A stretch of DNA of 64,000 nucleotides, from contig QPMI01000472.1 of the NCBI GenBank assembly GCA_004431415.1, forward strand, positions 1 through 64,000, given 5' to 3'. The DNA is from Cyanophora paradoxa CCMP329 (taxonomy: Eukaryota; Plantae; Glaucophyta). Shown here one piece after another: positions 7,545-64,000 of the stretch. Under the pieces are notes generated by a model. It was given only the letters and a program-made list of their open reading frames with translations, was not told the DNA's origin and did no database searches. Numbering within the stretch: position 1 is the stretch's first letter; each line of letters begins with the position of its first letter. The translations under genes were made by a program, and so were the position numbers.

Positions 7545-7615
7545 ACACATATAAAAACAAATATTATTATCCTGAGCGGAACGCGAGGGATAATAATATT
7601 TGTTTTTATATGTGT
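7545..7615. repeat. Terminal hairpin, right end of element A
   Basis: Perfect 28-bp arms 7545-7572 and 7588-7615 around TGAGCGGAACGCGAG. Confidence 0.95.
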
Positions 7616-21957: not shown

Positions 21958-22053
21958 ACACATATTGAAAAACGAATTTAAATCCCTTCGTTCATCTCGA
22001 TCGCTTCGCGATCTCGATTCACTCTGGATTTAAATTCGTTTTTCAATATGTGT
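21958..22053. repeat. Terminal hairpin, left end of element B
   Basis: Perfect 28-bp arms 21958-21985 and 22026-22053 around a 40-nt cap containing GATCGC-TTC-GCGATC. Confidence 0.95.
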
Positions 22054-22739: not shown

Positions 22740-22947
22740 TAGGCATCTTTGGTAGGCGGTTTAGGCGGTTAGGCACTTCTTAATCGAGAATTAAAAAGAA
22801 GTCCCAAATACATCAACTTGTGTTTTTCAAAACGTTGATTTTAGTTTTTATAGAGAATTTCCAGAAAAGGTGCCTAAGTGCCTAACGTCAATTAAAAGTG
22901 CCTAACTTCAATTAAAAAGTGCCTACTTCGATTTTTAAAGTGCCTAC
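22740..22947. promoter_or_regulatory. Putative replication origin, element B subterminal copy (TAGGC iterons / AT-rich / GTGCCTA iterons)
   Basis: Close reverse-complement match to 58849-59042. Confidence 0.6.
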
Positions 22948-23139
22948 TACACCATTTTCAGTAAGCCCATCTGAAATTCTGAATTTCTCAGTGTCAACTA
23001 ACTCGGAAATCGCAATACTCTATGTTTCTCCGATTTCTCCAACCCTGAAAACACACCTGTTATTCTCTCATCTATCTCATGAGATACTCTCGTTTCGCCA
23101 AAAATTGACAAACGATTTCCCATCATGCTGTAAAGGAAA

Positions 23140-23395
23140 CATGCCGATTAACCAGCAATATCACAATTTCCATGGGACTTACATCTTGATTGTCAAGAAA
23201 CTCCCAGAGCATTATGAGATCTTCCAAGAGATGGGATTGCGAATTACAAGGAGATCAACCCTTTGTAGATTCTTGAAAAAGAATGGTGCTAAATGGGATA
23301 AGACAATTCGCAAATGGTATACAGAAGATCCCAAGAGTCCCCTTCTGGATGTTTTCGAAACAGTGAATTTGGATCGGTTTAATCATTACCAATAG
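23140..23395 (+). CDS. Small protein with DUF5710-like C-terminus
   Basis: KKNGAKWDKTIRKWY motif in ORF 22919-23395, whose 5' part overlaps iterons; start uncertain. Confidence 0.45.
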
Positions 23396-24305
23396 CCAGA
23401 AACTCCAACTGGAATGAGTTGTCTATCCCATTCATGTCTACAAGATCACCATAATAATCTCTAAACTCAACTGTTAACTCTCTAATGACCAAATTGCGAT
23501 CGGTTATTTTTATGTATTCACTGTGCTCTCCACTGTGATAAACATACTGTCCAATATCTTTACTTAATTGCAATCTGAGAATCGCCCCTTGATTCTGTGG
23601 TTGTGATCTTGGGACAATATTGTGGTTTGTAGCAAATGGGGAGAGTTCTTTAATGTGCATGTATAAATACTGTTCTGCATTCATATCTGTCATCTTGGAT
23701 GCTTCTAACTTGTAGTTTAAGCGAGATGCCTCAAATTCATATCCTGTGAATGTTATTCCCATTGGGGATGGTTTGGGTGATTGGTACTCCTGCAAAATAG
23801 AGGAAATTCTCTGGGGCATATAAAGACCTTGCAGACTCTGGGAAATCGTAGATGTGCTCAATTGAAGCGACCCAATCAACAGAACTCACCCAAGAAGTTT
23901 ACCCAATCGCTGTGTAGATGCTACCAATTCGAATTGAACATTACTGTAAAACTCTAACTTGTAGGAAGTAGGGTTGTAGTAGACCTTGAATGCATATGTG
24001 AGATTGTTGCTCCAGTAAAGGTGAAATTCAGACCATAATTATATGGACTGGTGACCCGAAATGCCCTTGATTAATATACCCACTTGGGAGAAGGAAGACC
24101 TGTTTGGTTTCAGAGATGCCTTGGTAGAAGAATCTGACAAGAAGGTGGTCTGTTCCAATGGAATTATAGATGCTGTTGGGATCTCTGCATACAAAACTCG
24201 ACATTCTCTTGGTTTGGTTACTGGGGTTGTGAGTGCAACTTTGTAGGAGTTTTCTATTTGTCCATCTGATCGGTCTCTGCTATCTATATTGACCAGCCGA
24301 ATCAT
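23379..24305 (-). CDS. Minor capsid (penton) protein 1, element B (1-nt frameshifts)
   Basis: VNIDSRDR...Y.V.L..P....RVLYAEIP N-terminus and ELTVEFRDYYGDLVDMNGIDNSFQLEF C-terminus, the PLV single-jelly-roll pattern. Confidence 0.8.
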
Positions 24306-24333
24306 TTTAATATATGTTTATAGATAAAAGAAG

Positions 24334-25343
24334 ATGCCTGTGGATTACATTGAAGTGAGCTCTTTCAATACAATTTCGGGAGATGGACCTACTTCGAGTT
24401 TTATTGCTCGCCTCCCCAGCACATATGAATTTGTAAGAGCAGTAAGACTGGTCTCAGCAGAATTTTATAACAGCATTCCCATGGTGAGTGGTGAAACCAA
24501 ACCAGGAGATGTGACAATAGATAATGCAATCTACCTTTATTGGTCTGAATATCTTTCTGGTGCAGGAAGCACTGGTATTCCAACTGATCGACCTGCTGCT
24601 GATTATGAATCATGGAAACACATTGTGATAAGTCGCAGCACACCCATTCAAAACCACCAACAACTGGTGAATGTAATTAACTCCAAACTTGCATTGAGAG
24701 AGCCACCAGTAGCAATTCGCTGTAAATGGGATGATACACTGAAACGAGTAATATTCCATTCCACCATACCGTTTTACCTGGCTTTCTCAACTGCAATAAA
24801 CCCAACCCAGGCACAGATTCAGAGGTTTTTGAGTTCTGCTCGACTGCTTGGTCTTGATCCTGGGAGATATGGTAACACACCAATCCAATCACAGGTGTAC
24901 AATACTCTTACTGATGGTATCTTCACTGGGTCGATGGTGCATGGTATTATATCTTCATTTGAACCCGAGAAGACCAGGGATAGTGTCCTATTTGTGAGAG
25001 TAAAGGAGTTGGGTGATCTTGTGCAATGTGGTGATGGTCTCCTCACTGGATATTTCCACAAAATCGTGGTTCCTGATAAAGATTATGGTGAGCATGTCGT
25101 TTATAATTCGACAGAAGCCCATCCGATTTATAAATACTATAACAAGAATCTGGGCTCTCCACATTTTCGGTTGACATTGTGAATGCAATTAATGAACCAA
25201 TTGATTTCGAGGGTCAACCTGTCCACCTCACCTTCGAAATTCGATATGGTGATGAACCTGCTGGTGATCCTGTGTACGAATACTTCAAGAGGAGAATGGC
25301 GGAAACACATCCATCTTATCCGGTTATTGCGAATTTTGCGTAA
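24334..25343 (+). CDS. Minor capsid (penton) protein 2, element B (one frameshift near 25150)
   Basis: FIARLP..YEFVRAVRLVSAEFYNS...VDIVNAINEPIDFEGQPVHLTFEI; ortholog at 38140-39149. Confidence 0.78.
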
Positions 25344-25397
25344 AATCAAGGATCATTGGTGAATTTTTTATGTTGCAGTATAATAAAAGAGATAATC

Positions 25398-25740
25398 ATG
25401 GATATTACTTCGACCCTCCAACGTCTTTCTCTGAAAGAAGCTCTAACAACCCCAGAAGAAGCCAAGGCGTTCTTCTTGGACAACTCTCTCATGCTTGGTC
25501 TTGAATCCAAGTCGAAGCCAGTTCTTGTTGTTGTGAACCCAAGCAACACTTTTGAGAATAATGCTGGAAATCGCATTTCTTTCAAGCTCCCTCGCTACAA
25601 TTTCTGTGGAAAACTCGAACTTGCGTTTGACCTTCCAGCTGTCACTTTTGCTGGTGATACCGACCTTGTTCGCAATGGATACGTTCGCCCAGTTGGTGCT
25701 CTTGTCTCTCGACTTGAAATCACCTATGGATCTTACACTT
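25398..25740 (+). pseudogene. Major capsid protein of element B, 5' part (split by element C)
   Basis: ISFKLPRYNFCGKLELAFDLP...GALVSRLEITYG double-jelly-roll-type N-terminus. Joined to 52878-53908 it gives an intact 1374-nt (457-aa) frame. Confidence 0.85.
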
Positions 25741-26570
25741 ACACATATGAATATTCATATTTTAATCCCTCGGCGTTCCGCCTCAGGATTAAAATATGAA
25801 TATTCATATGTGTGATTCGATGTTATATCAATAAAATCGATTAATTTATTTGAATTTTCACATGAATTTTCATATTTTTATATGCAATTTCAATTAATTT
25901 AATCGATATTATATCGATAAACTCGATTAATCGATATTGTATCTTAATTGTAGTTAATCGGAATTATATCAATAACTTCGATTGATCTTAATTGAATTCT
26001 AAATGAATCTAATCGGAATTATATCAATAAATTCGATTAAATCATGTTCTTTTCCGATTAAATCAATTAAATATTTAACTTTGTTACCATAAGTGGTCTA
26101 AGTTGACTCACTTTTCATAAACATTTTGAACTCTTAGTCTCCTTGAATTTCTTAAGATGACTCAACTTAGTCAACTTAGTCAACTTTGTTACCATAATCA
26201 ATCAGGGTGGACTCACTTTTAGATCAACTTTGAAATTTCAAGCAAAATCAACTTTGATTTCAAAAGTGGATCTTCTAAGTGGACTCAAAATGTTCACTTT
26301 GTGATACATGTTAGCTCAAATCCTTACTGTTTATGGTCAGGGTTGACTAAGTGGGGGGAGTTGACACATTTTGTGAAATCCTTTTTAGAAAACTTTTGGT
26401 CCCAAATATTTCCTGTGAAATTTGAGTCAACTCAACCCACTTAGTCAACCCTTGCATTGAATTCGTAACAAAATCCATATACTTTTACTACTTTTACGAT
26501 TAATATGAGTCAACCTTGAGTCCACTTAAATATAAATATTATATAATAGGGGGAATCTAGGGCAGATGCT
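25741..26570 (+). repeat. Left TIR of element C (hairpin 25741-25813, ATCGA-rich tract, GTTGACT/GTGGACT iterons)
   Basis: Reverse complement of 52042-52871; identity ends after ...GGCAGATGCT (26570). Confidence 0.96.
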
Positions 26571-26803: not shown

Positions 26804-27202
26804 TCAAAACGGGAATCTATCATGTTTATGTCTCTCAGTCTTCTCAAATGTTAAGAAATTCATTGTTTTATCGATCTCATCTGCAACTGCTTGTGTTTTA
26901 TGCTGAGCTTCTTTACCACAACTGAATATATCAATTGCTAACATGCCTTCATTGGAATAACAATGAGCTGTGCAATGGCTTTCATCTAATAGCAGAACCA
27001 ATGCAAAACCAGGAGGTGATAGTTTGCCATCAAATATCTCACAATGCTTATGAACAATCCTAATACCTTGTCTCAATACTGCTTGTTCAAGGGTTCCCAT
27101 AATCCAATTACCTAGGAAGCTAACATGCTCATAACCTGTTGCTATAGCTGATTTAGCCTTGTAATCAAGCATAACATGAAAGCCTCTGTATTTAGTCTCC
27201 AT
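26804..27202 (-). CDS. speD: S-adenosylmethionine decarboxylase proenzyme (short, prokaryotic type)
   Basis: G.H...D N-terminus and LLLDESHCTAHCY..EG.LAIDIFSCG, with the ESH self-cleavage site and TCG-like Cys motif. Confidence 0.88.
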   Translation of the reverse strand: METKYRGFHVMLDYKAKSAIATGYEHVSFLGNWIMGTLEQAVLRQGIRIVHKHCEIFDGKLSPPGFALVLLLDESHCTAHCYSNEGMLAIDIFSCGKEAQHKTQAVADEIDKTMNFLTFEKTERHKHDRFPF

Positions 27203-27225
27203 TAAGAATACCTTAGAAAAATTAA

Positions 27226-27498: not shown

Positions 27499-27520
27499 AC
27501 TCTATATATAACCAATATTC

Positions 27521-28354: not shown

Positions 28355-28377
28355 TTTACATTAAAGGGATATATCTT

Positions 28378-40627: not shown

Positions 40628-41410
40628 ATGCAAGATTTAGAAGAGTTTAATGTCTCTGAAATGATTAAAGGTGTTTTCAGAGCCATTTTTATAGGCAAAA
40701 GTTGTACGGGAAAAAGCGAATGTGTAAAGTATTGGTTAAAGCAATTACATGATGCCAAAGTTATTGATGTTGTCCTAGTTGTGAGTGGGACCAGCTTCAA
40801 TCATTTCTGGAGAGAGGTTGCAACAGTAGAACTTGGTAAATGGGATGCCGGTTACATTTCAAAGCTTTTGGATGAAAGGCAGGAGAAAATCGAAAAGGGT
40901 GAACCTGTCAACCACATGTGTGTTGTTTTAGATGATTTAATTGATAATGAGATAATTGATTTAACCAGAGACAAGGTGGTGTCATCTCTGTACAGTAGGG
41001 GCAGACATTCGAAAATATCCATTATCTGCATTACACAGAAACTCAGAAAAGTCTCTTCCACTATTCGAGTTAATTCTGATTATGCTGTTTTCCTGAGTGC
41101 TGCTAATCGCAAAGAACTTGAAGCCATAGAGGAAGAATACAATATAATGCGAAACAAGGAGGACTTTTACAAAATGTTTGAAGAGTATGTCCACTCCTAT
41201 CAGTATATCGTTTGGTCCTCTGCTGGCTACTCTGTTAAATACTTTGTAGATAAAGCTGAGCTTGTCAAAGACTTCCCATTTCCTCGCTTCCACAGAAAGC
41301 CAAAAAAGAAAGAAGATGAACTGAAACCACCAGAGAAAGAGGAAGCCCCAAAAGAAGTGAAAAGCCAAGTCCATAGCAATAAATTGATGCGATATAAACG
41401 CGGTTTATAA
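40628..41410 (+). CDS. A32-like FtsK/HerA genome-packaging ATPase
   Basis: Walker A GKSCTGKS, Walker B VVLDD, RGRH...ITQ, IRVNSDY. Confidence 0.93.
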   Translation: MQDLEEFNVSEMIKGVFRAIFIGKSCTGKSECVKYWLKQLHDAKVIDVVLVVSGTSFNHFWREVATVELGKWDAGYISKLLDERQEKIEKGEPVNHMCVVLDDLIDNEIIDLTRDKVVSSLYSRGRHSKISIICITQKLRKVSSTIRVNSDYAVFLSAANRKELEAIEEEYNIMRNKEDFYKMFEEYVHSYQYIVWSSAGYSVKYFVDKAELVKDFPFPRFHRKPKKKEDELKPPEKEEAPKEVKSQVHSNKLMRYKRGL

Positions 41411-43176: not shown

Positions 43177-43394
43177 ATTCTCGATCGAAACAAATTTTGT
43201 AGAAATCGATTTGATCGGAGGCAAAAAAATGACAGCTTTCTTCCCTCTTTTTTAAAACTGTACCTATATATCGAGACAGTATCCCGACCCAAAACTACTT
43301 AAGGACTTGGCAAATAATAGGATATATATAAAAGACAATTCCTCCTTCCGAAATTATTTTCTTTGTTAAAGGTAGAAGTCCCCCAAAATCGAAA

Positions 43395-45987
43395 ATGAAC
43401 AAAATCGAGAAATTCGCCACCCCTGTTGAAAATGCTACATTCCTTAGTACTCTCATTGGTGATCGCAACAAGGTCACCCATGTATTTGATTCTGCTGAAG
43501 ATGCCCTTGAAGCAATTGATAATAGCAAGGTCAAGACCTGGGCTGAATGCATTCAGCCTGAACAAGTGACCAGAGTTTACCTGGACCTGGATAAATTCGC
43601 TGATTTGAAGGAGAATATTGCTGATAACTATGCTGAGGCTGAAACTGTTGTAAGAGAGATGAGAGATAAGCTATGGAAGCGATCTGGGACCACTTCGATT
43701 AACGATATTGCTGTTGCAGTTCGCCATAGAAGGGTTTATTTGATCAAGGAGGATGTCACCAAGTTCAAGATCTCAGCCCACTTTATCATTAAGTCGCTTG
43801 CATGCAAACATGAAGATATCCCAAGCTTTTCAAAGCTATGGGATTGGTGAAAAATGAGGATTATGACAGTGGAGTTTACAGCTCCACACAGAACCTTATC
43901 TGCCTCAATTGCTGCAAAGGTGAGACTCTGGATGCTCAAAATAAATCAAAGAAAGATGTTGATAAAAACGTTTGCTTTAAGAAATTCGTTGACTGTGACA
44001 AAGTGTTAATGCGAAATGAGGACTTCTTTGTATCTTTCTTCTCAGCTTCTACTAAACTTGTGGATGAATCGAATATTTCTGCATTCGCAAATTATAGCCC
44101 TGAGCCAAAACCAGTTAAAAGGAGCCAAAAAGTGATAAAGTGAAGACTGAGAAGGTAGAAGCTGAAAAAGACACTGAACCCGAAAACCCTGTTACTTTCG
44201 AACTGCTACAAAGTGTTATAATGGGTCTGAATGGTGAGAGAGCTAATGAGTATAAAACTTGGATTGATGTAGGACTGGTCATCATCAATGTTGGGGAAGA
44301 CAACAAGTTCACCCCTAAAATGCAAGCTGAACTCTTCCACCAATTCTCAGAACAGAGTGACAAGTATGATTATGATGAATGCCAGGAGAAGTTTACACAG
44401 CTTCGCAGAAGCAAGAAGAAGGCTGAGCCTGGCAAAGTGTTGACCTTCAAATCCTTGGTTTATTGGTTGAGCAAAGATAACAATGAGCTTTTCAAGGAAC
44501 TCTTCCCCAAAAAGTATGCATTCCTACCAGAGGACACAGATGAAATCGATTACAAGACTGCAAGTATCCCTCCTTTGGCTGAACATTACAATGTGCATAA
44601 GAGGTATTTCAATGCTCGCATGCATCATGTTGAAAATGTTGGTTGTGTGATGCTCTGGGATGAACAACTACTTTGCTGGATGCCCAAAGATATTGGGAAG
44701 CTCTCTACAAAGCATTTCCCCCACTTGATGCATAAGGTGATTGTGAATGAGGGGACAGATAATGAGAAAGAGAAATGGGAGCAATCATTTAGGAAATGGA
44801 TTGTGGATCCCACAGCCACAAGATCTACTTATATGGATTTCCTCCCACCTCCTGCTACTCTCAGTGCCAAATGCAAGTCTGTATTTAATCTCTATCCAGG
44901 AATGAAGGTCGACCATCAGCAATTCGAAAATGCCCCAGAGGATGTAACTGCTGAGATGATTAAGCCTTTCCTAGATCACCTGTTCTTAATGTCTGGTGAG
45001 GATCAAAATACCTATGAATATCTGTTGAAATGGTTTGCCCACATGCTGCAAAAGCCTGGGGAACTCAATGGAGTATCCTTAATCTTCATTGGTGAGCAGG
45101 GAACTGGTAAAAATGTGTTGGTTGATACTTTCCAAAAGAAGATACTTGGAGATGCCCTAAGTTATGCAACTGGAAAGCCAAAAGAGGATCTGTTTGGTCG
45201 ATTTGCCCACAATAGAGAGGATAAGATCTTGATTGTTGTCAATGAAGCCTCAGGCAAGGACACATTCGAAAATAATGATATGCTTAAGGATCTCATAACT
45301 TCTGATAAGATTGTAATTGAACACAAAGGGATAGATTCATACACAAAAAGCAACTTTGCCAGGATTATATTTACCAGCAATAATAACATTCCAGTGAAAA
45401 TTGAAGCTGGAGATAGGCGATTTGTGGTTGTTGAAGTTAGTAAGAAATTCGCAAAGGATAGGTCATACTTCCTTCCACTTGTAAAATGGCTTAATGATCA
45501 CTGCAATATTCGAAACATTGCCCACTATTTGAGAACCAAAGTTGACTGTGAGGATGTGAACTGGATTGCTGATAGACCCCTTACAAATAAATACTATTTA
45601 GCCCAGCAGGTATGCGCCCCAATCATTCTTATGTTCACTAAGTGGCTTGTGGATCGAGGCTTAATTTCCGAGAATAAATGCAAGTCTGGTAGCCTTGTGG
45701 AAACCTGGAAGTGGTTCCAGGAGTTCATTACCAGCAACAAATATAAAAACGATTATAATAGTCGCAGATATTATACTGAAATGAGAAGTGTTACATATAT
45801 TCAAGTGAAAACTACAAATGGCAAACAATACTATCATTTCCTATTCCCACAAGTATTTGAGGAATTCAGAAAGATGAAGCTTGTAGATGATGAGACTATT
45901 GAGGAAGAAGCTAATCCAAGGATGAAACAGGACCTACCTGCTGCTGATCCTGATGCATCAGATTATGATTCTGATGTTGAAGTTTAG
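43395..45987 (+). CDS. AEP primase - PriCT-2 - SF3 helicase, element C (three ORFs, two frameshifts)
   Basis: RVYLDLD, KISAH, D.GVYS..Q; Y.TWIDVG...FHQFS..S.KYD..EC; Walker A GEQGTGKN, VVNE, IFTSNN, DRRF. Confidence 0.85.
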
Positions 45988-46642: not shown

Positions 46643-49600
46643 ATGCCCCGAATTACCAACAAACTCATAAGGGAGAAGAAATGGGAACTCATGGGATTGC
46701 TGGGAACACTATATGCAGCCCATGAAATAACAGAGGCTGAATATGACCGGGAAATAGATTTAATTGCAAAGGGTAGACCCACTTTAGCCAGATTAACCAG
46801 AAAAGCAAATAACCTATATGATAAAATTGAAACCTTGGATGAACTGGATCGCCTAAGGCAAATAGAACCTGAGGCAGAAGATGGAACAGCCATGAATGAA
46901 TTATATCGCTGGCTCACTTACAGAGCCAGAAGGGAAGTTGTTGTAGATGTGATTGAATTCCTGGACAGAATTGCTACATCCCTTCCTAATCGATTAAAGC
47001 AGGGTTTAGATCAATTCAGGGCAATCAAGGTTCGCTTGTCTTTTATCTGCAAGTTCGTAAAAGTAAGCAATCCGCAGGTTTGGATATCGAAATACATTTA
47101 CAGCGATTATTTTGTACTAACCAGATCGAGAAATATTCGAACTGAGCTGAATAAAGCAGCCCAAATATGCCAGGAGCAGATGAATGTGGTTGATAGCTAT
47201 CGCTTAGAAAGAATTGAAATACTCAGAGTGGCTATTATGAGTTATGCTCCAACTGGTGGATGCTTTCTACAAACCCCAGAGTGGATTGCTAGGAAGAGAG
47301 CCACAGTGAATATTCGAAATATTGATGATTCCTGCTTCGAAAATGCAATTTTGGCATATATTCACAGAAAAGCGATAAACTCCCATAAGAGGAATGAGCT
47401 TTCACAATATCGCAAATGGAAATACTCAGCAATCGCTTATAATCCGCTGGCTCTCAATTTCGACAATATCCCATTCCCTGTTGCCTGTGATGCTGAAATA
47501 ATTGATAAATTCGAGGCTCAAAATGCAGGCATTAGCATTAATATATTTGGAATCGATGGAGAGGTTATTTATCCCCTGCATCAATCAAGTAACCCAGGCA
47601 GAAAGCATAAGGTTAATCTCATGCTGATATTTGATGATGAAGGGAATGGTCACTATATTACAATCATGTCCCTTTCAAGGCTATTGAAAGTAAACCATGA
47701 AACATACAATGATCAGAAGTTACACTACTGTGACACATGCTTATCTCGATTCAGGTCTGAGGCTAAACTCACTGCTCATGTGGACTCAAACAGATGCATT
47801 GATTGGAGACTCTCAAAGGGAATCACACCTAAACCTGAAACCACCATAGAGTTTGGATTGAAAAACCTCAGGAAAACTGTCTGGCTTCCTGTTGTGGTCT
47901 ACTGCAAGATTGAACATAGAAGCATCCCCATTGATGCATCGAAATCTAAGAGGGAAGTTTCAGCAGTCAACCTTAGAATAGTCACTGGGGCAGATGTTCA
48001 AGATTTTCGATTTGAGGGGCAGGATCCAATGGGAGATCTGTTTGAATGCTTGGAATCCAAAGCAAGAGAGCTGATCGATTTCCTGTTTACCAATATTCCC
48101 ATGAATGAACTCACAGATGAGCAGAAAGCAATTTACAAGGCTACTAAACACTGTTACCTTTGCAGTGAGAGGTTCACCAAAGAGAACTTCAAATGCAGGG
48201 ATCATGATCATCACACAGGCAATTATATTGCTCCTGCATGCAGAAACTGCAATCTCCATAGGAGAATCTCAAAGCAAACCAAAGTTGCAGTGGTTGTTGA
48301 CCAAATGGATGACTGTGGGACATTCATTTTCAGAAAAATAGCAGGCATGGGTGATAAAAAGCGAATCGAAATCCTTTCGAAAAACTTTGATCAATACCTT
48401 TCATTGCAATGGGGTCTTTACAAGTTCATTGATGCAAGCAATTTCATGGATTTCGGAGCTGCTGATGTGACTGAGTTAATGAACAAATTCCAGGCTTTTA
48501 GAAGGCTTTCACACTCAGTATATGGACTTGACCCAGTTCATTATGTATCTGCACCTGGGCTATCTTGGGATGCTATGTTAAGGACCACCAAGGCAAAAAT
48601 AGAGCTTATAAGTGATGTAGAGCAATACGAATTTGTTGAGAGGGGAATCAGGGGTGGCTTTGCAACAATGCCTTGTAGGTATGCTGAGGCTGATGGTGAG
48701 AACTCCCATATTATGCTGTTTGATGCTAACAACTTGTATGGCTACTGTTTGAGTCAGCCAATCCCAGTTGGTGATTTTAGATGGGAGACCGAATTCAACC
48801 CACAAGATAACAGATCCAGTTTCCTAGAAGTTGATCTGGATTACCCAATTAGGCTGTTTCTAGATCACAGTGATTTTCCCCTAATTATTAACAAGAAAAT
48901 AGTAGAATATGCAGAATTATCACAATATCAAAAAAGCCTATTGGATCTCTCAGGAGAAGAGCTTGATAAAACCCCTAAGCTAACTGCAACCTTTGGTTCT
49001 GTGACCAACTATGTAGTTTCTGAGCCTCTTCTACAATACATGTTAGCTAAAGGTGTGAAACTAAAGAAGGTTCACAGGGTCCTATCATTTACTGTGGCTC
49101 CTGTAATGAAACCCTACATTGAGCTGAATACTGATATGAGAAGGAAAGCAGTGAATAAATTCGAGGCTGATTTCTATAAGCTCATGAATAATTCAATCTA
49201 TGGGAAATGCATTGAATCATGTAGAGGTCGATCTGTGGTTAAGATTGCCAACACTGAGAAGCTATTTATGAAATATGCAGCTTCCCCATTGGTGAAATCA
49301 ACAAGTCCCATAAGTGAAAGGGCAGTTGCCTTTGAGTTTTACACAAAACATGTGAAGCTAGATAAGCCTGTTGCTATTGGGGCTTATGTTTTGGATACTG
49401 CCAAACTGCATAACTACAAGTTCTTCTATGATACTGTAAGGTCCCAGTGGGCAAAAGCAAAGTTACTATTCCATGATACTGATTCCTTTTGTCTATATAT
49501 CGAATCTCAGACCCTCCAAAAAGACCTAGAGAATATATCCTTTAATCTGGACTTAGGGGGATCTAACAGAATGACCCCAGGTAAATACAAAAATGAGATG

Positions 49601-49888
49601 CCAGGTTCTGCTATATTGGAGTATGTAGGTCTGAGAGCCAAAGTTTACAGTTTCAGAACTGCTGAGATTGAGAGAAGTAAGCTATCTGGGACTTCCACTG
49701 AGGAACTCCAATTCAATGATTTTAAGGAGTGTTTATTTGCAGGTATCAGCAAGACTGTGACTGCAAAGCAGAAAAGAAGGGCAGATCACACAATAATAGA
49801 TACTGTGAGTAGAAGGGTTGCCCTAAACTGCTTTGATGCAAAGAGATACATCTTACCAGATGGTATTAATTCTGTTCCTTTTAATTAA
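46643..49888 (+). CDS. Protein-primed-type family B DNA polymerase, element C
   Basis: DANNLYG, KLMNNSIYGK, HDTDS, K.KNE, GLRAKVY; N-terminal OTU-like DDSCF...GHY and EndoVII-like C..C...RDHDH.TG....AC..CN. Confidence 0.93.
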   Translation: MPRITNKLIREKKWELMGLLGTLYAAHEITEAEYDREIDLIAKGRPTLARLTRKANNLYDKIETLDELDRLRQIEPEAEDGTAMNELYRWLTYRARREVVVDVIEFLDRIATSLPNRLKQGLDQFRAIKVRLSFICKFVKVSNPQVWISKYIYSDYFVLTRSRNIRTELNKAAQICQEQMNVVDSYRLERIEILRVAIMSYAPTGGCFLQTPEWIARKRATVNIRNIDDSCFENAILAYIHRKAINSHKRNELSQYRKWKYSAIAYNPLALNFDNIPFPVACDAEIIDKFEAQNAGISINIFGIDGEVIYPLHQSSNPGRKHKVNLMLIFDDEGNGHYITIMSLSRLLKVNHETYNDQKLHYCDTCLSRFRSEAKLTAHVDSNRCIDWRLSKGITPKPETTIEFGLKNLRKTVWLPVVVYCKIEHRSIPIDASKSKREVSAVNLRIVTGADVQDFRFEGQDPMGDLFECLESKARELIDFLFTNIPMNELTDEQKAIYKATKHCYLCSERFTKENFKCRDHDHHTGNYIAPACRNCNLHRRISKQTKVAVVVDQMDDCGTFIFRKIAGMGDKKRIEILSKNFDQYLSLQWGLYKFIDASNFMDFGAADVTELMNKFQAFRRLSHSVYGLDPVHYVSAPGLSWDAMLRTTKAKIELISDVEQYEFVERGIRGGFATMPCRYAEADGENSHIMLFDANNLYGYCLSQPIPVGDFRWETEFNPQDNRSSFLEVDLDYPIRLFLDHSDFPLIINKKIVEYAELSQYQKSLLDLSGEELDKTPKLTATFGSVTNYVVSEPLLQYMLAKGVKLKKVHRVLSFTVAPVMKPYIELNTDMRRKAVNKFEADFYKLMNNSIYGKCIESCRGRSVVKIANTEKLFMKYAASPLVKSTSPISERAVAFEFYTKHVKLDKPVAIGAYVLDTAKLHNYKFFYDTVRSQWAKAKLLFHDTDSFCLYIESQTLQKDLENISFNLDLGGSNRMTPGKYKNEMPGSAILEYVGLRAKVYSFRTAEIERSKLSGTSTEELQFNDFKECLFAGISKTVTAKQKRRADHTIIDTVSRRVALNCFDAKRYILPDGINSVPFN

Positions 49889-52041: not shown

Positions 52042-52871
52042 AGCATCTGCCCTAGATTCCCCCTATTATATAATATTTATATTTAAGTGGACTCAAGGTT
52101 GACTCATATTAATCGTAAAAGTAGTAAAAGTATATGGATTTTGTTACGAATTCAATGCAAGGGTTGACTAAGTGGGTTGAGTTGACTCAAATTTCACAGG
52201 AAATATTTGGGACCAAAAGTTTTCTAAAAAGGATTTCACAAAATGTGTCAACTCCCCCCACTTAGTCAACCCTGACCATAAACAGTAAGGATTTGAGCTA
52301 ACATGTATCACAAAGTGAACATTTTGAGTCCACTTAGAAGATCCACTTTTGAAATCAAAGTTGATTTTGCTTGAAATTTCAAAGTTGATCTAAAAGTGAG
52401 TCCACCCTGATTGATTATGGTAACAAAGTTGACTAAGTTGACTAAGTTGAGTCATCTTAAGAAATTCAAGGAGACTAAGAGTTCAAAATGTTTATGAAAA
52501 GTGAGTCAACTTAGACCACTTATGGTAACAAAGTTAAATATTTAATTGATTTAATCGGAAAAGAACATGATTTAATCGAATTTATTGATATAATTCCGAT
52601 TAGATTCATTTAGAATTCAATTAAGATCAATCGAAGTTATTGATATAATTCCGATTAACTACAATTAAGATACAATATCGATTAATCGAGTTTATCGATA
52701 TAATATCGATTAAATTAATTGAAATTGCATATAAAAATATGAAAATTCATGTGAAAATTCAAATAAATTAATCGATTTTATTGATATAACATCGAATCAC
52801 ACATATGAATATTCATATTTTAATCCTGAGGCGGAACGCCGAGGGATTAAAATATGAATATTCATATGTGT
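52042..52871 (-). repeat. Right TIR of element C (hairpin 52799-52871)
   Basis: Reverse complement of 25741-26570. Confidence 0.96.
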
Positions 52872-52877
52872 ACACTT

Positions 52878-56206: not shown

Positions 56207-56393
56207 ACCGCCCCCAAAGTCCCAAATATCCGCTGAATCCTTTTTGTTACCATGATCGATCGACTTTTCGATGGATCATTACCATATATCGAGCGCCAAT
56301 CGGAAAACCCAAAGGTATTTAAAGGTTAGGCGCCAAAAAATGACAAGGATCCGGAGAAATTAATTTCTCCATTAAGTATAAGAAGACCCCAAG

Positions 56394-58784
56394 ATGTTCA
56401 ACTCTCAGCAACCGAACGGACTTAAAATCGCTCTCTTTGAGAAGGTGGATCGCTCCACTCTCAAATACCTGATTGATAATTTCGAGACTTTGGAGTATCG
56501 ACCTGATATTGATGCAACTGCTACTCTCACCCTTCTCCAACGTTATTTCAAGGATTTGAAGCGAGATGGGCGCATTGAAGTTAAATATCATCAATGCAAG
56601 CATAATACTGGTCGTTATTTCGTGAATCTTGAACACATCAAGAAGAAGCAAGCATCAATGCAAGGAATGCCCAGAGAATTCCGCCACACTCTTGCTCGCG
56701 ATTTCTACTACGATATCGATATGAAAAATGCGCATCCCACACTTCTCATTCAGTATTGTGAAAAAAATGAAATCGTTTGTGAGGGTCTCACTGATTATGT
56801 CGACAATCGTGATAGTATCATTGCTGATATAAGCAAGAAATCGGACTTTCTCGCGAAGATATCAAGAAAGCGTTTCTTTCTGTTGTAAACGGGGGTGGGG
56901 GCTCAATTGATAACAAGGAGCTGCTGAACCACCCCAAGTTCAAAGCAGTTAAGAACGAAATCACAGGAATTCACGCTCAAATTGCAAGCATGCCCGAAAA
57001 CCACAACTTCTTCTTGATTTGCAAGCGAAAGAAGGAGTATAACATCTTTGGTTCAACCATTAATATGGTTCTTTGCAAATTGGAGAATGAATGTCTGATT
57101 GCGCTTTGTCAGTATTTAACCTCACTTGCTGTGAAAGTCGGTGTTCTCGTTTATGACGGTTGTATGGTTGAAAAAGCCCTTGAATTACCCGAAACTCGTC
57201 TCCACAATATTCTCTGTGATGCTACCAAGTATATTGAGAATATCACTGGCTACAAGATTGAGTTGATGATTAAACCAATGGATCAAGGATTTACGATTCC
57301 AACAAATTCCAAAAGTGTATCCTCTCCTCTTAATATTGTTCGGGATGATCGTGAAGCTGCTCTCACATTTGTTAAATCGATTGAGGGGCGAGTGGTCATG
57401 TCTGATGGTCGTATATTCGCTCAGACAGACGATTTTCTGTGGACTGATGATTCCACAATGGTCTACAATATAATGTTGAAATTGTGCATGCAGTGCTTCA
57501 TGTTCAAGGAGGATGACAAAGGTAACTTGAAGCCATATTCTACCAATCTTACTGGGGCAGATCGAATTATCAAGACAGCCAAAGCATTTCTGCCCAATAA
57601 TCGTGTGTTCTACAATGATATTATGTGGTCATCGACCATTGGGAAATTGTGCTACCGAAATGGTGTGTATGATTTCGAGACAAAGAAGCTCACACCATGG
57701 GACAAATGTGACAAGATCTATTCTACCACTCGAATTGAGAGGGATCTTCTTGTTGACAAAGATGGATATGTGATCAAGCCATCTGATTCGGATATTCAAA
57801 CCCTTTTCGACAAGATTCTGGAACCCGTTTTCGGAACTGATTCGATTTCTTCTGCTCTGGAATTCACAGCTCGTGCAATGGCTGGGAAATACGAAGATAA
57901 ACAGTGGGGATTATCAATTGGTGAACGCAATTGTGGTAAGGGGTTTATGTGAATCTCAATGAAAATACCTGGGGAAGTGGATATGTGCACACCATCAGTG
58001 GGGAGGCATTCTTGCTGAATAAGAACTCAGATGACAACGATACCTCCAAGTTAAAGTGGATGAAACCTTGTGAATTTCGTCGTCTGACATTCACCCAAGA
58101 GATGAAATTCGATGTCTCAAACACAAATATTAAGGTGAATGGTGCAATGATCAAAAAGAAGGAATCTGGTGGTGATGTTCAATGCATGCGTGTTCTTTAT
58201 GAAAATGAGGTCAATATTCGCCTCCAAAGTCGTTTGTGGATGATCATGAATGATGTTCCACCCATTTCCCCATCTGATACCCTTCAAACCATGGTATTGT
58301 TCAAGCACCCCACAAATTCGTTGATCAAAAGACTGTTGAGGAAATGAACTCTCCTTGTGTGAGATTGGCTTCGGAAGATATCAAGAGTGTTCTGCTAAAA
58401 AGTCCTGAGATAATTAGAGCATTCGAATGGATGGTGTTTGAAGCCTACAAATCTCAGAAATTCGTGGTGTCTGGGAAGGTTGCTGAGGATATTAATGAAT
58501 TCCGGGAAGATGCAGGTGATGAAATGTCTCTGATCAGATCAGTGTTCGAATTCACTCGAAATTCATCCGATTCTGTAACTTCCAAGATGGTTGAGCAAGA
58601 GATCAAGCAACTGAGACTGAATATGTCTGCAAATCGCATTAAAACTGTGATGGGTTTGCTTGGAGCGAAATATGACAAGAATGCAGTTCGCAAGAAGGTT
58701 GGTACTGGTTATGATCGTGGCTACAAGGGTGTGAAGAAGATTGATAAGACACCTACTGTTGTTGAGTTTGATGATGATGAGTAA
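56394..58784 (+). CDS. TVpol (PolA-derived primase-polymerase) fused to D5-like SF3 helicase, element B (four ORFs, three frameshifts)
   Basis: GRYF...SMQGMPREFR...YYDIDMKNAHP (motif A), LENECL, LVYDG (motif C); NGVYDF, Walker A GERNCGKG. Confidence 0.8.
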
Positions 58785-59418: not shown

Positions 59419-62400
59419 ATGCCCCGCCAATCCAATAGAATCATCAAAGAGAAGAAAAACGAAATACTCGGTCTTTTAGGAACCCTTTTAGTCACTGGTG
59501 ATATTACAGAATTCGAATATGATCGCCAGGCAGCAATCTTGGATAGGAGACCAAGATTATCTCAACTCACAGAAATTACAAATCGACTGTATGATCGTTT
59601 TGAGAAAATGGAGGAATTCAGGGATGAAGGTTTAAGGTTGGGAGCGATTGCACCAGAGATTGAAGATGGGGAAGCAATGAACAAAGCATATTCTTGGTTG
59701 ACCTATCGAGCCAGAGGGGAGGTTATCCAAGATGGGATTGAATTCTTGGAGAGAATTGCACCCACTCTACCTCAGAGACTCAGACAGAAACTCCAAGACC
59801 TGCGAGCAATTAAAACTCGGTTGACCTTCATTTGTAAATTCACCAAAGTGAGTGATCAAAGGGTGTGGATCACCAAATTCATTTACAGTGATTACTTTGT
59901 CATCACAAGATCACGAAATATTGATGTTGAACTGCGAAATGCCCTTCAATCTATGCAGGAACAGATGATGCAGGTTGACAGTTACAGACTGGATCGCATT
60001 GAGATGCTGAGAGTGGTAATAATGTCTTATGCTCCTGTGGGTGGTTGCTTCTTCTCGACACCTGAGTGGATTGGATCAAAGAGAGCAACTGTGAATGTCA
60101 AGAATATTGATGGTCAAGACTGCTTCAAGTATGCAATCTTGGCTTACCTGCACCGAAATGATATTAATAAACACAAGAGCAATGAACCCAGCCAGTATAG
60201 AAGATGGTTAAACGAACTCGATTTCGAGGGCATCCAGTTTCCAGTTGCCTGTGATGCAGAGGTTATTGATCGATTTGAGGAGCAGAACCCTGAACTCTCA
60301 ATCAACATTTATGGTGCAGATAATCAAGCACAGTGTTTCTATCCTCTCCACCAATCCAGCAACCCCAGGAGAAAGACCAAGATTAACCTTTTATTAATCG
60401 AAAACGAAGAGGATGATAGAGGGCATTATATCACCATCATGTCTCTGAGTAGACTTCTGAAAACCACCTTTGATAAAGCCCATGATGGTCGCATTTATTA
60501 TTGTGAGACCTGTCTGTCTCGTTTCAGAACTCAGGAGAAGCTGGATGTACATATAGAAGCAAATCGCTGCATTGATTGGAGGGAAAGCAAAGGTAAATGT
60601 CCGAAATCTGGAAGTCACATTGCATTTGGGCTTCAACACCTTCGCAAAACTGTGTGGCTTCCCACTATCTGCTATGTGAAAATGGACAGTCACTCGGTTC
60701 CAATTGATGAGAACCGCAGTAAGAGAGAGGTTAAATCGGTTTCTCTAACAGTTGTGATGGGGGATGAGGTGATCTCTCATTATTTCGAGGGATCAGATCC
60801 ACTTGGTGCTCTGTTTACCACTCTCACAGAGATCAGACCCCAAGTAATCCGCACTCTATTCACCAATATTCCAATGCACCCACTCACAGAGGAGCAGAAA
60901 GCACAATACAAGATTACTAAACACTGTTATATCTGTGCTGAACGATTTACCCATGAGAATTTCCCAGTGAGAGACCATTGTCATCAATCAGGAGCATTTA
61001 TTGGGAAAGCATGCAGAAACTGCAATCTCCACAGGAGAATCTCGAAACAAACCAAGGTTGCAATAGTGGTGGATCACATGGATGAATGTGGACACGAAAT
61101 ATTCCGCAAAATTGCACAGCAAGATGATAAACTTCGTGTTGAGATTCTGAGCAAGAATTTCGATCAATACCTCTCTCTGCAATGGGGCATGTGGAAATTC
61201 ATAGATGCTTCGCACTTCATGGACTTCCAGGCAGTGGATTCTGGTGATCTTATGAGTAAATTCCAGACATTCCGAGAATTGGCGTTTACACAATATGGAT
61301 TGGATCCTGCCCATTATGTGAGCGCTCCTGGATTATCCTGGGATGCAATGCTCATTTATACCAGAGCAAAGATCGAGCAGATCAGTGATGTAGGGCAATA
61401 CGAATTCATTGAGAGAGCAATTCGAGGTGGGTTTGCTACAATGCCTACTCGATATGCAAAGGTGGAAAACCCAGATGACCATATAGTTCTCTTGGATGCA
61501 AATAATCTGTATGGTTTTGCTCTCAGTCAAGAACTGCCCAATGGCGATTTTCGATGGGAAGATGTCACAGAGGCACTTAAAGACACCTCTGGACGAAGTG
61601 CTTTCATTGAAGTTGACCTGGAATACCCACAAACTCTCACAGATCATTACGATTTTCCACTTGTAGTAAATAAAGAGCAAATCAGCACCGAAATGCTGGG
61701 TGAGTATCAACGAAAACTACTGGATATCACAGGTGAGAAGATAAGCAAAGACCCCAAACTCACAGCAACATTCTCACCCAAAAACAACTATGTGATCTCC
61801 CAACCTCTCTTGGTCTATCTTGTGAGCAAAGGTATTATAATTAAGAAGGTTCACAGGGTTCTCTCATTTGCAACCTCTGCATTCATGAAGAGTTATATTG
61901 ATCTAAATACGAAACTGAGGCGCCAATCTGTCACCAGATTCGAGTCTGACTTCTTTAAATTAACGAACAATGCAATCTATGGTAAATGCCTCGAATCATG
62001 CAGGGGTCGATCTGTGGTAAAGATTGCTAACAGTGAGAAACTCTGCAAGAAATATGCTGCAAGTCCATTGATCAAGGCAACCAATGTATTAAACGAAAAT
62101 GCTGTTGCCTTTGAGATGTACTCAAAGCATGTTCACTTAGATAAACCAGTAGCAATTGGTGCTTTTGTGCTGGATTTCGCCAAACTCCATAATAGCAGGT
62201 TCTTTTATGATGTGGTGAGGAGAACTTGGGAAACAGCAGAGCTGCTGTTCCATGATACAGATTCTTTCTGTCTACTGCTGCATACCAATGATCTAAATAA
62301 TGAGATGAAGCGAATTGCTGAACACCTGGATTGCAGTAATTATGATCCAGCCCACCCTCTCTTTGATAGGAGTAATCGCTTGATTCCAGGTAAATATAAA

Positions 62401-62700
62401 AACGAGTTCCCCCATGCAAAGATTGTGGAGTATGTAGGTCTGAGATCGAAACTCTATGCTTTCAGAACTGAGACCTTTGATAAAATAAAGATGTCTGGTA
62501 CTTCCTCAAAAGACGTTCACTTTGATGATTTCAAGAGATGCTTGTTTGAAGGCATCACCAAAACAGTAGCAGTAGTAAACAAGCGAAGACAAGACCACAA
62601 CCTATATGATTTGGAGAGCAGAAGGGTGGCTCTAAACCAACTCGATAGCAAAAGGAAGATATTAGACGATGGAATTCACAGCATTCCATTTGGGCTCTAA
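59419..62700 (+). CDS. Protein-primed-type family B DNA polymerase, element B
   Basis: DANNLYG, KLTNNAIYGK, HDTDS; same domain order as 46643-49888. Confidence 0.93.
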   Translation: MPRQSNRIIKEKKNEILGLLGTLLVTGDITEFEYDRQAAILDRRPRLSQLTEITNRLYDRFEKMEEFRDEGLRLGAIAPEIEDGEAMNKAYSWLTYRARGEVIQDGIEFLERIAPTLPQRLRQKLQDLRAIKTRLTFICKFTKVSDQRVWITKFIYSDYFVITRSRNIDVELRNALQSMQEQMMQVDSYRLDRIEMLRVVIMSYAPVGGCFFSTPEWIGSKRATVNVKNIDGQDCFKYAILAYLHRNDINKHKSNEPSQYRRWLNELDFEGIQFPVACDAEVIDRFEEQNPELSINIYGADNQAQCFYPLHQSSNPRRKTKINLLLIENEEDDRGHYITIMSLSRLLKTTFDKAHDGRIYYCETCLSRFRTQEKLDVHIEANRCIDWRESKGKCPKSGSHIAFGLQHLRKTVWLPTICYVKMDSHSVPIDENRSKREVKSVSLTVVMGDEVISHYFEGSDPLGALFTTLTEIRPQVIRTLFTNIPMHPLTEEQKAQYKITKHCYICAERFTHENFPVRDHCHQSGAFIGKACRNCNLHRRISKQTKVAIVVDHMDECGHEIFRKIAQQDDKLRVEILSKNFDQYLSLQWGMWKFIDASHFMDFQAVDSGDLMSKFQTFRELAFTQYGLDPAHYVSAPGLSWDAMLIYTRAKIEQISDVGQYEFIERAIRGGFATMPTRYAKVENPDDHIVLLDANNLYGFALSQELPNGDFRWEDVTEALKDTSGRSAFIEVDLEYPQTLTDHYDFPLVVNKEQISTEMLGEYQRKLLDITGEKISKDPKLTATFSPKNNYVISQPLLVYLVSKGIIIKKVHRVLSFATSAFMKSYIDLNTKLRRQSVTRFESDFFKLTNNAIYGKCLESCRGRSVVKIANSEKLCKKYAASPLIKATNVLNENAVAFEMYSKHVHLDKPVAIGAFVLDFAKLHNSRFFYDVVRRTWETAELLFHDTDSFCLLLHTNDLNNEMKRIAEHLDCSNYDPAHPLFDRSNRLIPGKYKNEFPHAKIVEYVGLRSKLYAFRTETFDKIKMSGTSSKDVHFDDFKRCLFEGITKTVAVVNKRRQDHNLYDLESRRVALNQLDSKRKILDDGIHSIPFGL

Positions 62701-62883
62701 TCTACTTCATTAATCTTTCTTTTTCTTTGGTTTCGCTTTCCAAGAAGTAATAAACCGCGAATTAAATGCAGCAGCCAAATACATCTTAATCCAGGGTCAT
62801 TGGGCTCGATTGCAAAATAGTTTGGAATTGTGTTCTCTTTCCACACAGACTCTTGCATTTATTATATGAGAGATAAGGTAAAG

Positions 62884-64000
62884 ATGCCTTCCACACAAAT
62901 AGGATTGAGACAACCACCAAGAATTGTGAGAAAAGAGGCAATTGAAGATCGAGGGAATATCCTACCTATCACAGTTCCAGTGGAAGAGAAAAGCAGTCGA
63001 ATATTGAAAAGATCAGAGATGGTCAAGCAATTAATCCCAGAGACCCTCCCAGCTGAGACAGCACCAAAAGAGTCGAAGATTGCTAAGAAGTTCTATGATC
63101 CCAGGACAGGCTACAAGGGATTCACAGCAATGAGACAGGAACTACCAGAAGAGAACTACAAGAAGATGAGAGAATGGTATGATAAACAGGAGGTTGTCCA
63201 AATTAATGCACCAACTCTATCTCGAAAGAGAGATCCCATGATTCCAATTAGGCAACCCCTTGATACCTATGTGATTGATCTGCTCTTCTTTCCTGCATAC
63301 AAAAAGCAGAATGATGGTTATGATACATTTATGAGTGCAATGGAATCAACCCTGAGAACAGGGTTCATAATTCCAATGAGAGACAAGAGTGCTCTTACTA
63401 CTCTTGCAGCATTCAAGCAACTTGAACAAAGAGTCCCCAGACCGATTGTTCGCATTCAGAGTGATAGTGGAAGCGAATTTACCAATGTGCTATTCACAGA
63501 TTATTTGGGAACCAAATTCATAGAGCATCAACTAAGTGATGTTGCAGATCACAGAACCCAAGGTCGAATTGAAGCCTTTAACAGACAGATCAAAAGATTG
63601 ATCACAAACTACTGCATTGCAAATAATACTGCACGATTTTTTGATGTGTTGGGTGATATTGAGTATAATTATAATAATACCATTCACTCTGCAACCAAGA
63701 GAAAACCAGCAGAGACCACAGAAGCCCACTACAAAGAGATTGTGAATATGGAGGATCAGAGATTCAAGAAATCGATCGAATATCTTGATGCCCTGAAACC
63801 TGGAATGTTTGTGAGAGTAAAAGTTGAAAAGAATCCATTTGCAAAGCAGGGTGTTAATTGGTCTCGAATTGTTTATAGTGTGGAGGGCAGAGAGGGCTTC
63901 AAGTTCAGAATCAGAAGTCCAAGTGGTGAGATAGTTGATGGTAGATTCGCTTTTCATGAACTGCTGCCCATCAAAGGTGTTGAGTATCATGAAACTCCCA
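62884..64000 (+). CDS. rve integrase, element B (runs off the window, absent from the ORF track)
   Basis: ATG 62884, MPSTQIGLRQPP...PIRQPLDTYVIDLLFFP...SDSGSEF...IEAFNRQIK. Confidence 0.9.
   Translation, partial: MPSTQIGLRQPPRIVRKEAIEDRGNILPITVPVEEKSSRILKRSEMVKQLIPETLPAETAPKESKIAKKFYDPRTGYKGFTAMRQELPEENYKKMREWYDKQEVVQINAPTLSRKRDPMIPIRQPLDTYVIDLLFFPAYKKQNDGYDTFMSAMESTLRTGFIIPMRDKSALTTLAAFKQLEQRVPRPIVRIQSDSGSEFTNVLFTDYLGTKFIEHQLSDVADHRTQGRIEAFNRQIKRLITNYCIANNTARFFDVLGDIEYNYNNTIHSATKRKPAETTEAHYKEIVNMEDQRFKKSIEYLDALKPGMFVRVKVEKNPFAKQGVNWSRIVYSVEGREGFKFRIRSPSGEIVDGRFAFHELLPIKGVEYHETP

What the first reader, a model, noticed from the sequence alone, without database searches (positions are those of the whole stretch)
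21958..22053. Strand-specific terminal hairpins (28-bp stem, GAA triloop, tandem G.A pairs) at all four visible virus ends
Seen: the ends at 7545-7615, 21958-22053, 25741-25813 and 52799-52871 each have a perfect stem of exactly 28 bp, ACACATAT...ATCC, whose middle differs between elements with full compensation. On the strand carrying the 3' end the caps read T-GA-GCG-GAA-CGC-GA-G (A), T-GA-GGCG-GAA-CGCC-GA-G (C) and A-GA-GT-GA-ATC-GA-GATCGC-GAA-GCGATC-GA-GAT-GA-AC-GA-AG (B). The loop is always GAA and the internal mismatches are GA opposite GA. Known: GNA triloops such as GCGAAGC and tandem sheared G.A pairs are very stable in DNA, while the complementary TTC/TC strand gains no such stability; Polintons are modelled as protein-primed with simple TIR ends. 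Inference: the 3' terminus is selected to fold back with its 3'-OH paired, giving a self-priming, protective or closed hairpin end. All four ends have one orientation, so no flip-flop is seen.
Basis: partly seen in the sequence, partly recalled or inferred. Interest (0 to 1): 0.92.

Follow-up and report, generated by a model that had tools for sequence, protein, structure and literature searches.

The report
Strand-specific hairpins capping polinton-like virus ends
Three integrated polinton-like viruses end in a 28-base-pair DNA hairpin whose G·A-rich cap lies only on the strand carrying the 3' end, which likely folds back to shield and prime the end much as Streptomyces telomeres do, while a retained terminal-protein polymerase probably rebuilds the 5' end.

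Summary
Observation confirmed. Four ends of three endogenous polinton-like viruses (A, B, C) carry a 28-bp perfect stem. Eleven of 28 pairs differ between families, all compensated. A GAA loop plus tandem GA/GA occurs only at these four places, always on the 3'-end strand. C has 830-bp TIRs and a 6-bp target duplication.

Corrections: both strands fold (about 1 kcal/mol apart), so only the cap is strand-specific. Only B has the extra-stable GCGAAGC. Four ends cannot exclude flip-flop (p=1/8).

New here: both family-B polymerases have a dead, largely deleted exonuclease. They keep a terminal-protein domain under purifying selection, whose priming loop is shortened but still holds Ser/Tyr. Each element also has a primase-helicase.

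Best model (0.45): the single-stranded 3' end folds back as cap and primer, and protein priming restores the 5' end, which fixes cap orientation, as at Streptomyces telomeres. Main rival (0.25): the free genome has closed hairpin ends that the integrase nicks and inserts.

Terminal palindromes with hairpin priming were already proposed for PLVs in a 2026 preprint. The G·A cap, the constant stem length and the link to this polymerase were not found in print. The scan earlier noted a subterminal Polinton hairpin in another genome.

The parts
7545..7615 (+). Terminal hairpin of element A (right end); 28-bp stem, 15-nt cap with one GA/GA tandem and GAA loop on the + (3'-end) strand
   Evidence: GC step
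21958..22053 (-). Terminal hairpin of element B (left end); 28-bp stem, 40-nt cap with three GA/GA tandems and a C(GAA)G loop on the - (3'-end) strand
   Evidence: host junction in 4 of 4 runs and a cap variant one base shorter
25741..25813 (-). Left terminal hairpin of element C; 28-bp stem, 17-nt cap
52799..52871 (+). Right terminal hairpin of element C, identical to the left one
25741..26570 (+). Left TIR of C (830 bp, 100% identical to the right TIR)
52042..52871 (-). Right TIR of C
25735..25740 (.). 6-bp target-site duplication, left copy (C is inserted in B's putative capsid gene)
52872..52877 (.). 6-bp target-site duplication, right copy
46643..49888 (+). pPolB of C: terminal-protein (TP) domain, vOTU protease, dead and shortened exonuclease with an EndoVII-like insert, intact polymerase motifs
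46949..47242 (+). TP domain (residues 103-200); the linking loop, residues 182-186 (47186-47200), is shortened and holds Ser185/Tyr186
59419..62700 (+). pPolB of B, 62% identical to C's, with the same exonuclease loss and TP loop
49892..51277 (+). rve-type integrase of C with D-D-E motifs present
   Evidence: (below Pfam cut-off)
62866..64000 (+). rve-type integrase of B (76% identical to C's; runs off the window)
43332..45987 (+). Second replicase of C: primase (PriCT-2) plus SF3-type helicase, split over three frames
56382..58784 (+). Second replicase of B: unrelated N-terminus with PolA/TVpol-like motifs (motifs recalled, not matched by a library) plus helicase part, split over several frames
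40628..41410 (+). A32-like packaging ATPase of C (B's counterpart at 53971-54753)

Best explanation
The last 71-96 bases of each virus end form a 28-bp palindrome whose G·A-rich cap sits on the 3'-end strand, and this strand likely folds back whenever it is single-stranded, giving a probably nuclease-resistant end with a paired 3'-OH, while the terminal-protein polymerase is predicted to rebuild the 5' end so that the cap never changes strand. Steps. (2) Inferred: strand displacement or the primase-helicase leaves the 3' end single-stranded and it snaps back. (3) Inferred: the fold protects the end, is bound by a viral protein that spans from the GA tandem to the terminus, and lets a polymerase re-extend an eroded 3' end or prime the second strand on the inner arm, which keeps the arms perfectly matched. 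(4) Inferred: the end is reopened at the original 3' position and the exonuclease-dead pPolB fills the short gap from its TP, as in Streptomyces end patching. (5) Shown for C: insertion with a 6-bp duplication, consistent with the rve integrase.
For: The cap pattern occurs only at the four ends and only on the 3' strand. The chance of GA/GA in a 2x2 mismatch loop is 1/144 each, and B has three (they may share an origin by duplication). 9 of 10 GA steps lie in pyrimidine-GA-purine context, the one that favours sheared pairs in DNA (count from the caps; rule recalled). A design that benefits one strand fits ends copied without inversion. The TP fold is modelled at pLDDT about 80-90, with Ser185/Tyr186 in the loop between the second helix and the last strand, where 10.1101/2024.03.18.585575 places linking Ser/Tyr (passages). 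D-S-Y is kept in 3 of 3 family members although P0121's TP is only 41/98 identical. TP pN 0.23 versus pS 0.83, like the polymerase domain (0.26/0.74). vOTU Cys/His and Pol A/B/C residues match 120 of 120 homologs. Precedent: Streptomyces 3' overhangs with GNA loops and sheared G·A, TP-primed patching and fold-back repair (PMC4513846 passages; PMC5449611 passages and introduction). The ends start with an AC repeat, as slide-back origins do (recalled).
Against: The priming loop is about 4 residues shorter and has no Gly or Pro; 116 of 118 homologs covering it keep Gly/Pro plus a hydroxyl residue, 103 as GSG-like, so the TP may no longer prime. In Halocafeteria, terminal palindromes go preferentially with non-pPolB elements, so such ends do not need a TP. 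Zero one-sided changes among 11 variable pairs is explained more simply if the arms are two strands of one duplex (rival 1). Folding energies differ by only 1.1-1.4 kcal/mol between strands (the parameters are not built for sheared pairs). A and C lack the C(GNA)G closure; CG-CG two-pair stems are not extra-stable in PMC13037366 section 2.3 (measured there for GAAA loops). Orientation rests on 4 ends. Two replicases in one genome can be a transient state. No free genome was seen.
Confidence: 0.45

Rival explanations
1. Hairpin-end integration. The free genome ends in a closed or nicked hairpin with the GA cap. The integrase cuts 28 bp from the cap, joins that 3'-OH to host DNA, and host repair unrolls the hairpin. 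The provirus palindrome is then the footprint of a hairpin telomere, and excision would run the same chemistry backwards. Replication would rely on primase-helicase and hairpin priming.
For: It explains perfect arms without compensatory evolution (11 two-sided, 0 one-sided changes), the constant 28 bp as a ruler, the same 8-mer at the inner and outer junction, and the cap on the transferred 3' strand. The TP loop is altered and the exonuclease is dead. Palindromes occur on TP-less elements. The pPolB carries an EndoVII-like domain that could cut four-way junctions (also present in many homologs).
Against: Copying through a closed hairpin makes GA and TC caps in equal numbers, so an extra asymmetric step is needed. 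TP and vOTU are under purifying selection. None of the joints listed changes strand (weak: contigs break at repeats). That retroviral-type integrases use hairpin substrates this way is not known to me.
Confidence: 0.25
2. The fold is a recognition signal (cruciform or single-strand hairpin) for integrase, excision or the packaging ATPase, with no priming role; replication is ordinary protein priming.
For: The hairpin design is shared by B and C, which share integrase, pPolB and the morphogenetic block but have unrelated primase-helicases. Beyond the hairpin, the end regions match only in short pieces (B-C) or not at all (A-B).
Against: It does not explain why the 3' base is exactly paired at the stem foot, or why the arms never mismatch.
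Confidence: 0.15
3. Parvovirus-like rolling-hairpin replication with hairpin transfer: the 3' hairpin primes, a nick on the parental strand hands it to the new strand, and caps flip each round. Four ends in one orientation would be chance.
For: The geometry allows self-priming; this model is proposed in the Halocafeteria preprint; p = 1/8 to 1/16 for 4 ends.
Against: Only one strand's cap has the G·A design. No HUH/Rep endonuclease appeared among the proteins scanned (28 + 34 ORFs against Pfam; not every ORF was scanned). The TP is retained.
Confidence: 0.1
4. Assembly fold-back artefact, or a neutral by-product of repair at insertion.
For: The assembly has single-base indels against run contigs; the preprint mentions accidental annealing as an alternative.
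Against: Same length and cap logic in three diverged families, identical hairpins at both ends of C with an exact TSD, and the junction confirmed in 4 of 4 runs.
Confidence: 0.03

Closest known systems
Terminal palindromes of Halocafeteria seosinensis virophages and PLVs (bioRxiv 10.64898/2026.07.28.741278; passages and section 7 read, supplements not seen)
   Same: Palindromes inside the TIRs next to the TSD in integrated polinton-like elements; hairpin priming proposed.
   Different: There they go mainly with non-pPolB replicases (52 nt in one subtype). No G·A caps, strand bias or fixed stem length appear in the parts read. Here they accompany a TP-bearing, exonuclease-dead pPolB. Their sequences could not be compared.
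Streptomyces telomeres, Tap-Tpg end patching (PMC4513846, PMC5449611)
   Same: The 3' strand folds into hairpins with GNA loops and sheared G·A; protein-primed 5' ends; fold-back repair of eroded 3' ends; second replication machinery for the bulk.
   Different: Several short palindromes over about 170 nt rather than one 28-bp stem; Tap/Tpg are not family-B polymerases; bacterial, not integrating.
Polintons and PLVs with group-2 pPolB (10.1101/2024.03.18.585575, passages)
   Same: TP-vOTU-Exo-Pol layout, rve integrase, A32 ATPase, long TIRs, 6-bp TSD. Exonuclease loss alongside an SF3 helicase parallels mavirus.
   Different: Palindromic ends; shortened TP loop; about 95 residues deleted from the exonuclease. 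Three viral contigs with related pPolB and end-located inverted repeats showed no terminal stem of 14 bp or more (3 of 33 loci; ends may be trimmed).
Parvovirus terminal hairpins (rolling hairpin; single-orientation left ends by junction resolution, largely recalled; passage in PMC3431310)
   Same: A self-priming 3' fold-back with mismatched purine bubbles.
   Different: ssDNA genomes with a Rep/NS1 nickase; none found here; no integrase-made TSD.
Mini-hairpin DNA, GCGNAGC (PMC13037366, passages and section 2.3)
   Same: B's tip is the exact extra-stable, nuclease-resistant motif, also found at phage origins and promoters.
   Different: A and C close the loop with G-C instead of C-G.

Membership tests
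Polinton / polinton-like virus (Polisuviricotina) | Long TIRs and a 6-bp target-site duplication | tested here: met
   C: 830-bp perfect TIRs, ACACTT on both sides. Not testable for A and B, whose other ends lie outside the window.
Polinton / polinton-like virus (Polisuviricotina) | Protein-primed family-B polymerase with TP and vOTU domains | tested here: met
   Pfam DNA_pol_B_2 above cut-off for C; best structural match phi29 polymerase, E 2e-17; domains and catalytic residues.
Polinton / polinton-like virus (Polisuviricotina) | rve integrase and A32-like packaging ATPase | tested here: met
   Pox_A32 above cut-off; rve E 1.4e-4 below cut-off, but D-D-E motifs are present and PHROGs gives transposase hits.
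Polinton / polinton-like virus (Polisuviricotina) | Double jelly-roll major capsid protein | tested here: inconclusive
   The ORF before the ATPase has no Pfam or PHROGs hit, one homolog at 56%, and a model of that homolog at pLDDT 38. The assignment rests on position and size.
Protein-primed linear replicons | Linking Ser/Thr/Tyr in the TP loop with Gly/Pro nearby | tested here: inconclusive
   Ser/Tyr present and conserved in 3 of 3; Gly/Pro absent, loop about 4 residues shorter.
Protein-primed linear replicons | [quoted passage not shown] | not testable with these tools
   Needs extrachromosomal DNA.
Streptomyces-type telomere (works like; not a member) | GNA loops and sheared G·A hairpins on the 3' strand | tested here: met
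   Sequence pattern only; the sheared geometry itself is inferred.
Streptomyces-type telomere (works like; not a member) | Tap/Tpg proteins and multiple tightly packed palindromes | tested here: not met
   One palindrome per end; the replication proteins are pPolB and primase-helicase.
Rolling-hairpin replicons (parvoviruses) | Flip and flop forms of the cap | tested here: inconclusive
   4 of 4 ends in one orientation (p = 1/8); other copies were not counted.
Rolling-hairpin replicons (parvoviruses) | HUH/Rep nicking endonuclease | tested here: not met
   None among the ORFs scanned against Pfam; GIY-YIG and EndoVII-like domains are present instead.
Closed-hairpin telomeres (poxvirus, N15, Borrelia) | Covalently closed ends of the free genome | not testable with these tools
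   No free genome; no strand-changing joint among those listed.

The most novel reading that the evidence does not exclude
These viruses use an end type not yet described in eukaryotic DNA viruses: a G·A-capped 3' fold-back that serves at once as telomere, primer and integrase substrate. It is read by a 28-bp ruler and served by a dedicated, exonuclease-dead terminal-protein polymerase that only patches ends while a primase-helicase copies the rest. In the strongest form, the integrase inserts hairpin-ended genomes and excises them by the reverse reaction, which would answer how Polintons leave the chromosome.
Probability: 0.3. Interest if true: 0.85.

Novelty: new variant of a known kind. Interest (0 to 1): 0.58.

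Why it matters
How Polintons and PLVs leave the host chromosome and solve end replication is untested; current models are inferred from gene content. These ends give short, synthesizable substrates (71-96 nt) with built-in controls (GA strand versus TC strand, three natural variants), and a polymerase and integrase to test on them. Protein priming, hairpin priming and hairpin-end integration can therefore be told apart directly. If the best model holds, it is a convergence with Streptomyces telomeres, and it gives a functional reason for two replicases in one virus and for loss of proofreading.

Tried and rejected
No whole genome is held, so other family ends could not be collected and cap orientation over further copies was not counted.

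End or cap patterns found 0 matches in viral contigs and 0 in metagenome contigs. Locus searches with the integrase pair and the pPolB pair found no confirmed relative. pPolB searches gave only distant loci of 26-39% identity. In the 33 loci no GA-capped terminal hairpin was seen, a weak control because contig ends may be trimmed; L034 was not scanned.

One close pPolB relative (P0121) has no DNA context available. Exonuclease loss is not tied to the TP-loop change: P0232 lost the exonuclease but keeps GSGW. I first read the changed loop as a dead TP and dropped that.

No Rfam match, and no one-sided G-T changes in the stem, so an RNA structure is unlikely. No RNA holder was listed. 29 host-region ORFs had no Pfam hit, so the host is unidentified; the only capsid homolog is from a protist proteome collection. 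The capsid model was too poor to search. The atlas search gave no answer, so the PolA/TVpol label for B's second replicase rests on recalled motifs.

Literature: searches of the open library found no description of G·A/GNA strand-specific caps in Polintons or PLVs. Subscription journals and bioRxiv supplements were not visible, and the Halocafeteria palindrome sequences may be in the latter. The original Polinton paper and the parvovirus junction-resolution paper were not held, so statements on them are recalled.

Full report
Setting. The window holds the right part of one AT-rich element (A, to 7615), 14 kb of GC-rich host DNA, and a second element (B, from 21958 to beyond 64000). A third, complete element (C, 25741-52871) is inserted into B. 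C has 830-bp perfect TIRs and the same 6-mer on both sides. B and C encode a family-B polymerase, an rve-type integrase, an A32-like ATPase and a primase-helicase. The capsid gene is assigned by position only. They are endogenous polinton-like viruses of an unidentified, probably protist, host.

Observation. All four hairpins are as described. They are the only perfect stems above 16 bp in the window, against 10-13 bp in 30 resamples. Between the three families 7-9 of 28 stem positions differ per pair; 11 pairs change on both sides, none on one side, and none is broken. The first 8 and last 4 stem positions are invariant. The caps are 15, 17 and 40 nt long. A GNA triloop stem followed by GA/GA occurs four times on both strands of 64 kb, at the four ends, always on the strand with the 3' end. 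Contigs from 4 of 4 runs laid reproduce the host-to-B junction through the first cap base with no difference. They also show a B cap one base shorter at 21987 in 29-32% of summed depth, which makes B's closing match A and C (depth is not a copy number).

Limits of the observation. Both strands form the 28-bp stem, within 1.1-1.4 kcal/mol, so only the cap is strand-specific. Only B has the GCGAAGC motif whose stability and nuclease resistance are documented (PMC13037366); A and C close the loop G-C. Four ends in one orientation occur by chance 1 time in 8, and C's two ends may not be independent. A's stem is 28 or 29 bp depending on a flanking G.

What is fixed. Stem length and the first GA/GA tandem are fixed while the tip varies, so the conserved distance runs from the terminus to the first tandem. 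This suggests a protein reading the folded strand (inference). Beyond the hairpin the end regions share little.

The polymerase. Both pPolBs (62% identical) have the TP-vOTU-Exo-Pol order and fold like phi29 polymerase (model pLDDT 88). Polymerase and vOTU catalytic residues match 120 of 120 homologs. The ExoI aspartate, present in 120 of 120, is lysine in both; ExoII is absent; a segment of median 108 residues is 14. The TP loop that carries the linking residue in PRD1-type TPs (10.1101/2024.03.18.585575) is about 4 residues shorter and lacks Gly/Pro, which 116 of 118 covering homologs keep. It retains Asp-Ser-Tyr in C, B and a third relative, P0121, at the modelled loop position. The TP domain is under purifying selection like the polymerase domain (pN/pS 0.23/0.83 and 0.26/0.74). 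Protein priming is therefore more likely kept than lost, but it is not shown. Each element also has its own, unrelated primase-helicase.

Mechanism. Best model (0.45): the 3' end becomes single-stranded during replication and snaps back. The G·A cap makes it compact and recognisable, and the paired 3'-OH allows repair or second-strand priming on the inner arm. TP-primed synthesis then restores the 5' end, so the cap stays on one strand. This is how Streptomyces telomeres work, with other proteins (PMC4513846, PMC5449611). Rival 1 (0.25): the free genome ends in a hairpin, the integrase cuts 28 bp from the cap and transfers that 3'-OH, and repair unrolls it. This explains perfect arms and fixed length most simply, but needs a way to lose TC caps. 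Rival 2 (0.15): recognition signal only. Rival 3 (0.10): rolling hairpin with flip-flop not yet sampled. Artefact 0.03.

Prior art. A July 2026 preprint reports palindromes at TIR ends next to TSDs in Halocafeteria virophages and one PLV subtype, mostly with non-pPolB replicases, and proposes hairpin priming (supplements unseen). An October 2026 preprint describes genomes with two replicases and internal repeats bracketing one of them. In searches I found no report of strand-specific G·A/GNA caps, a constant stem or a link to an exonuclease-dead pPolB in these viruses. Passages of PMC12721341, PMC12747079, PMC3431310 and PMC4443254 added nothing on this. The pyrimidine-GA-purine rule, slide-back repeats, TVpol motifs and single-orientation parvovirus left ends are recalled, not from a call.

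Relatives. None with DNA context was found. Among 33 viral loci with distant pPolBs, 3 had end-located inverted repeats and none of the 33 had a GA-capped terminal hairpin; this is a weak control.

Verdict. A real, selected DNA end structure and a new variant of a recently noted kind. Its mechanism is open between protein-primed patching and hairpin-end integration, and it is directly testable with short oligos and two proteins. Interest 0.58.

Noticed in passing
window 22744-22965 vs 58831-59051 (B); 26341-26527 vs 45998-46179 (C): In both elements a diverged inverted copy of the inner part of the left end region (86% over 223 nt; 69% over 191 nt) sits between the primase-helicase and the pPolB-integrase pair, suggesting that this pair is a separately acquired cassette (compare the October 2026 preprint).
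   Followed up: partly
window 47870-48523 and the matching part of 59419-62700: A pPolB subfamily (C, B, P0121) with a dead exonuclease, about 95 residues deleted and an EndoVII-like zinc domain kept; P0232 lost its exonuclease separately.
   Followed up: yes
window 25735-25740 and 52872-52877: C's target 6-mer begins with the same four bases as the element's own end; chance or target preference. B's flank does not show it.
   Followed up: no
window 26804-37189: C carries a block absent from B's left arm: S-adenosylmethionine decarboxylase, fibre-like genes with an S74 chaperone and a 36-nt repeat (32088-32549), and a patatin-like lipase fused to an F5/8 domain.
   Followed up: no
window 51527-51769: Array of about nine 20-bp-spaced near-palindromic repeats between the integrase and the right TIR of C, a possible protein-binding site array.
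   Followed up: no
window 6280-7292: A's end region has three copies of a 150-240-nt repeat in mixed orientation, with purine/pyrimidine-biased iteron-like motifs unrelated to those of B and C.
   Followed up: no
window 46228-46581: Stand-alone GIY-YIG endonuclease just upstream of C's pPolB, a second candidate nickase.
   Followed up: no
window 22055 and 25915: Contigs in 4 of 4 runs join C-like and B-like inner TIR sequence, pointing to further family members with mosaic TIRs (table 5c).
   Followed up: no
window 23379-25400, 39203-40568, 43332-45987, 56382-58784: Many viral genes are split over frames; run contigs differ from the window by single-base indels in B's left arm, so some breaks may be assembly errors.
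   Followed up: partly
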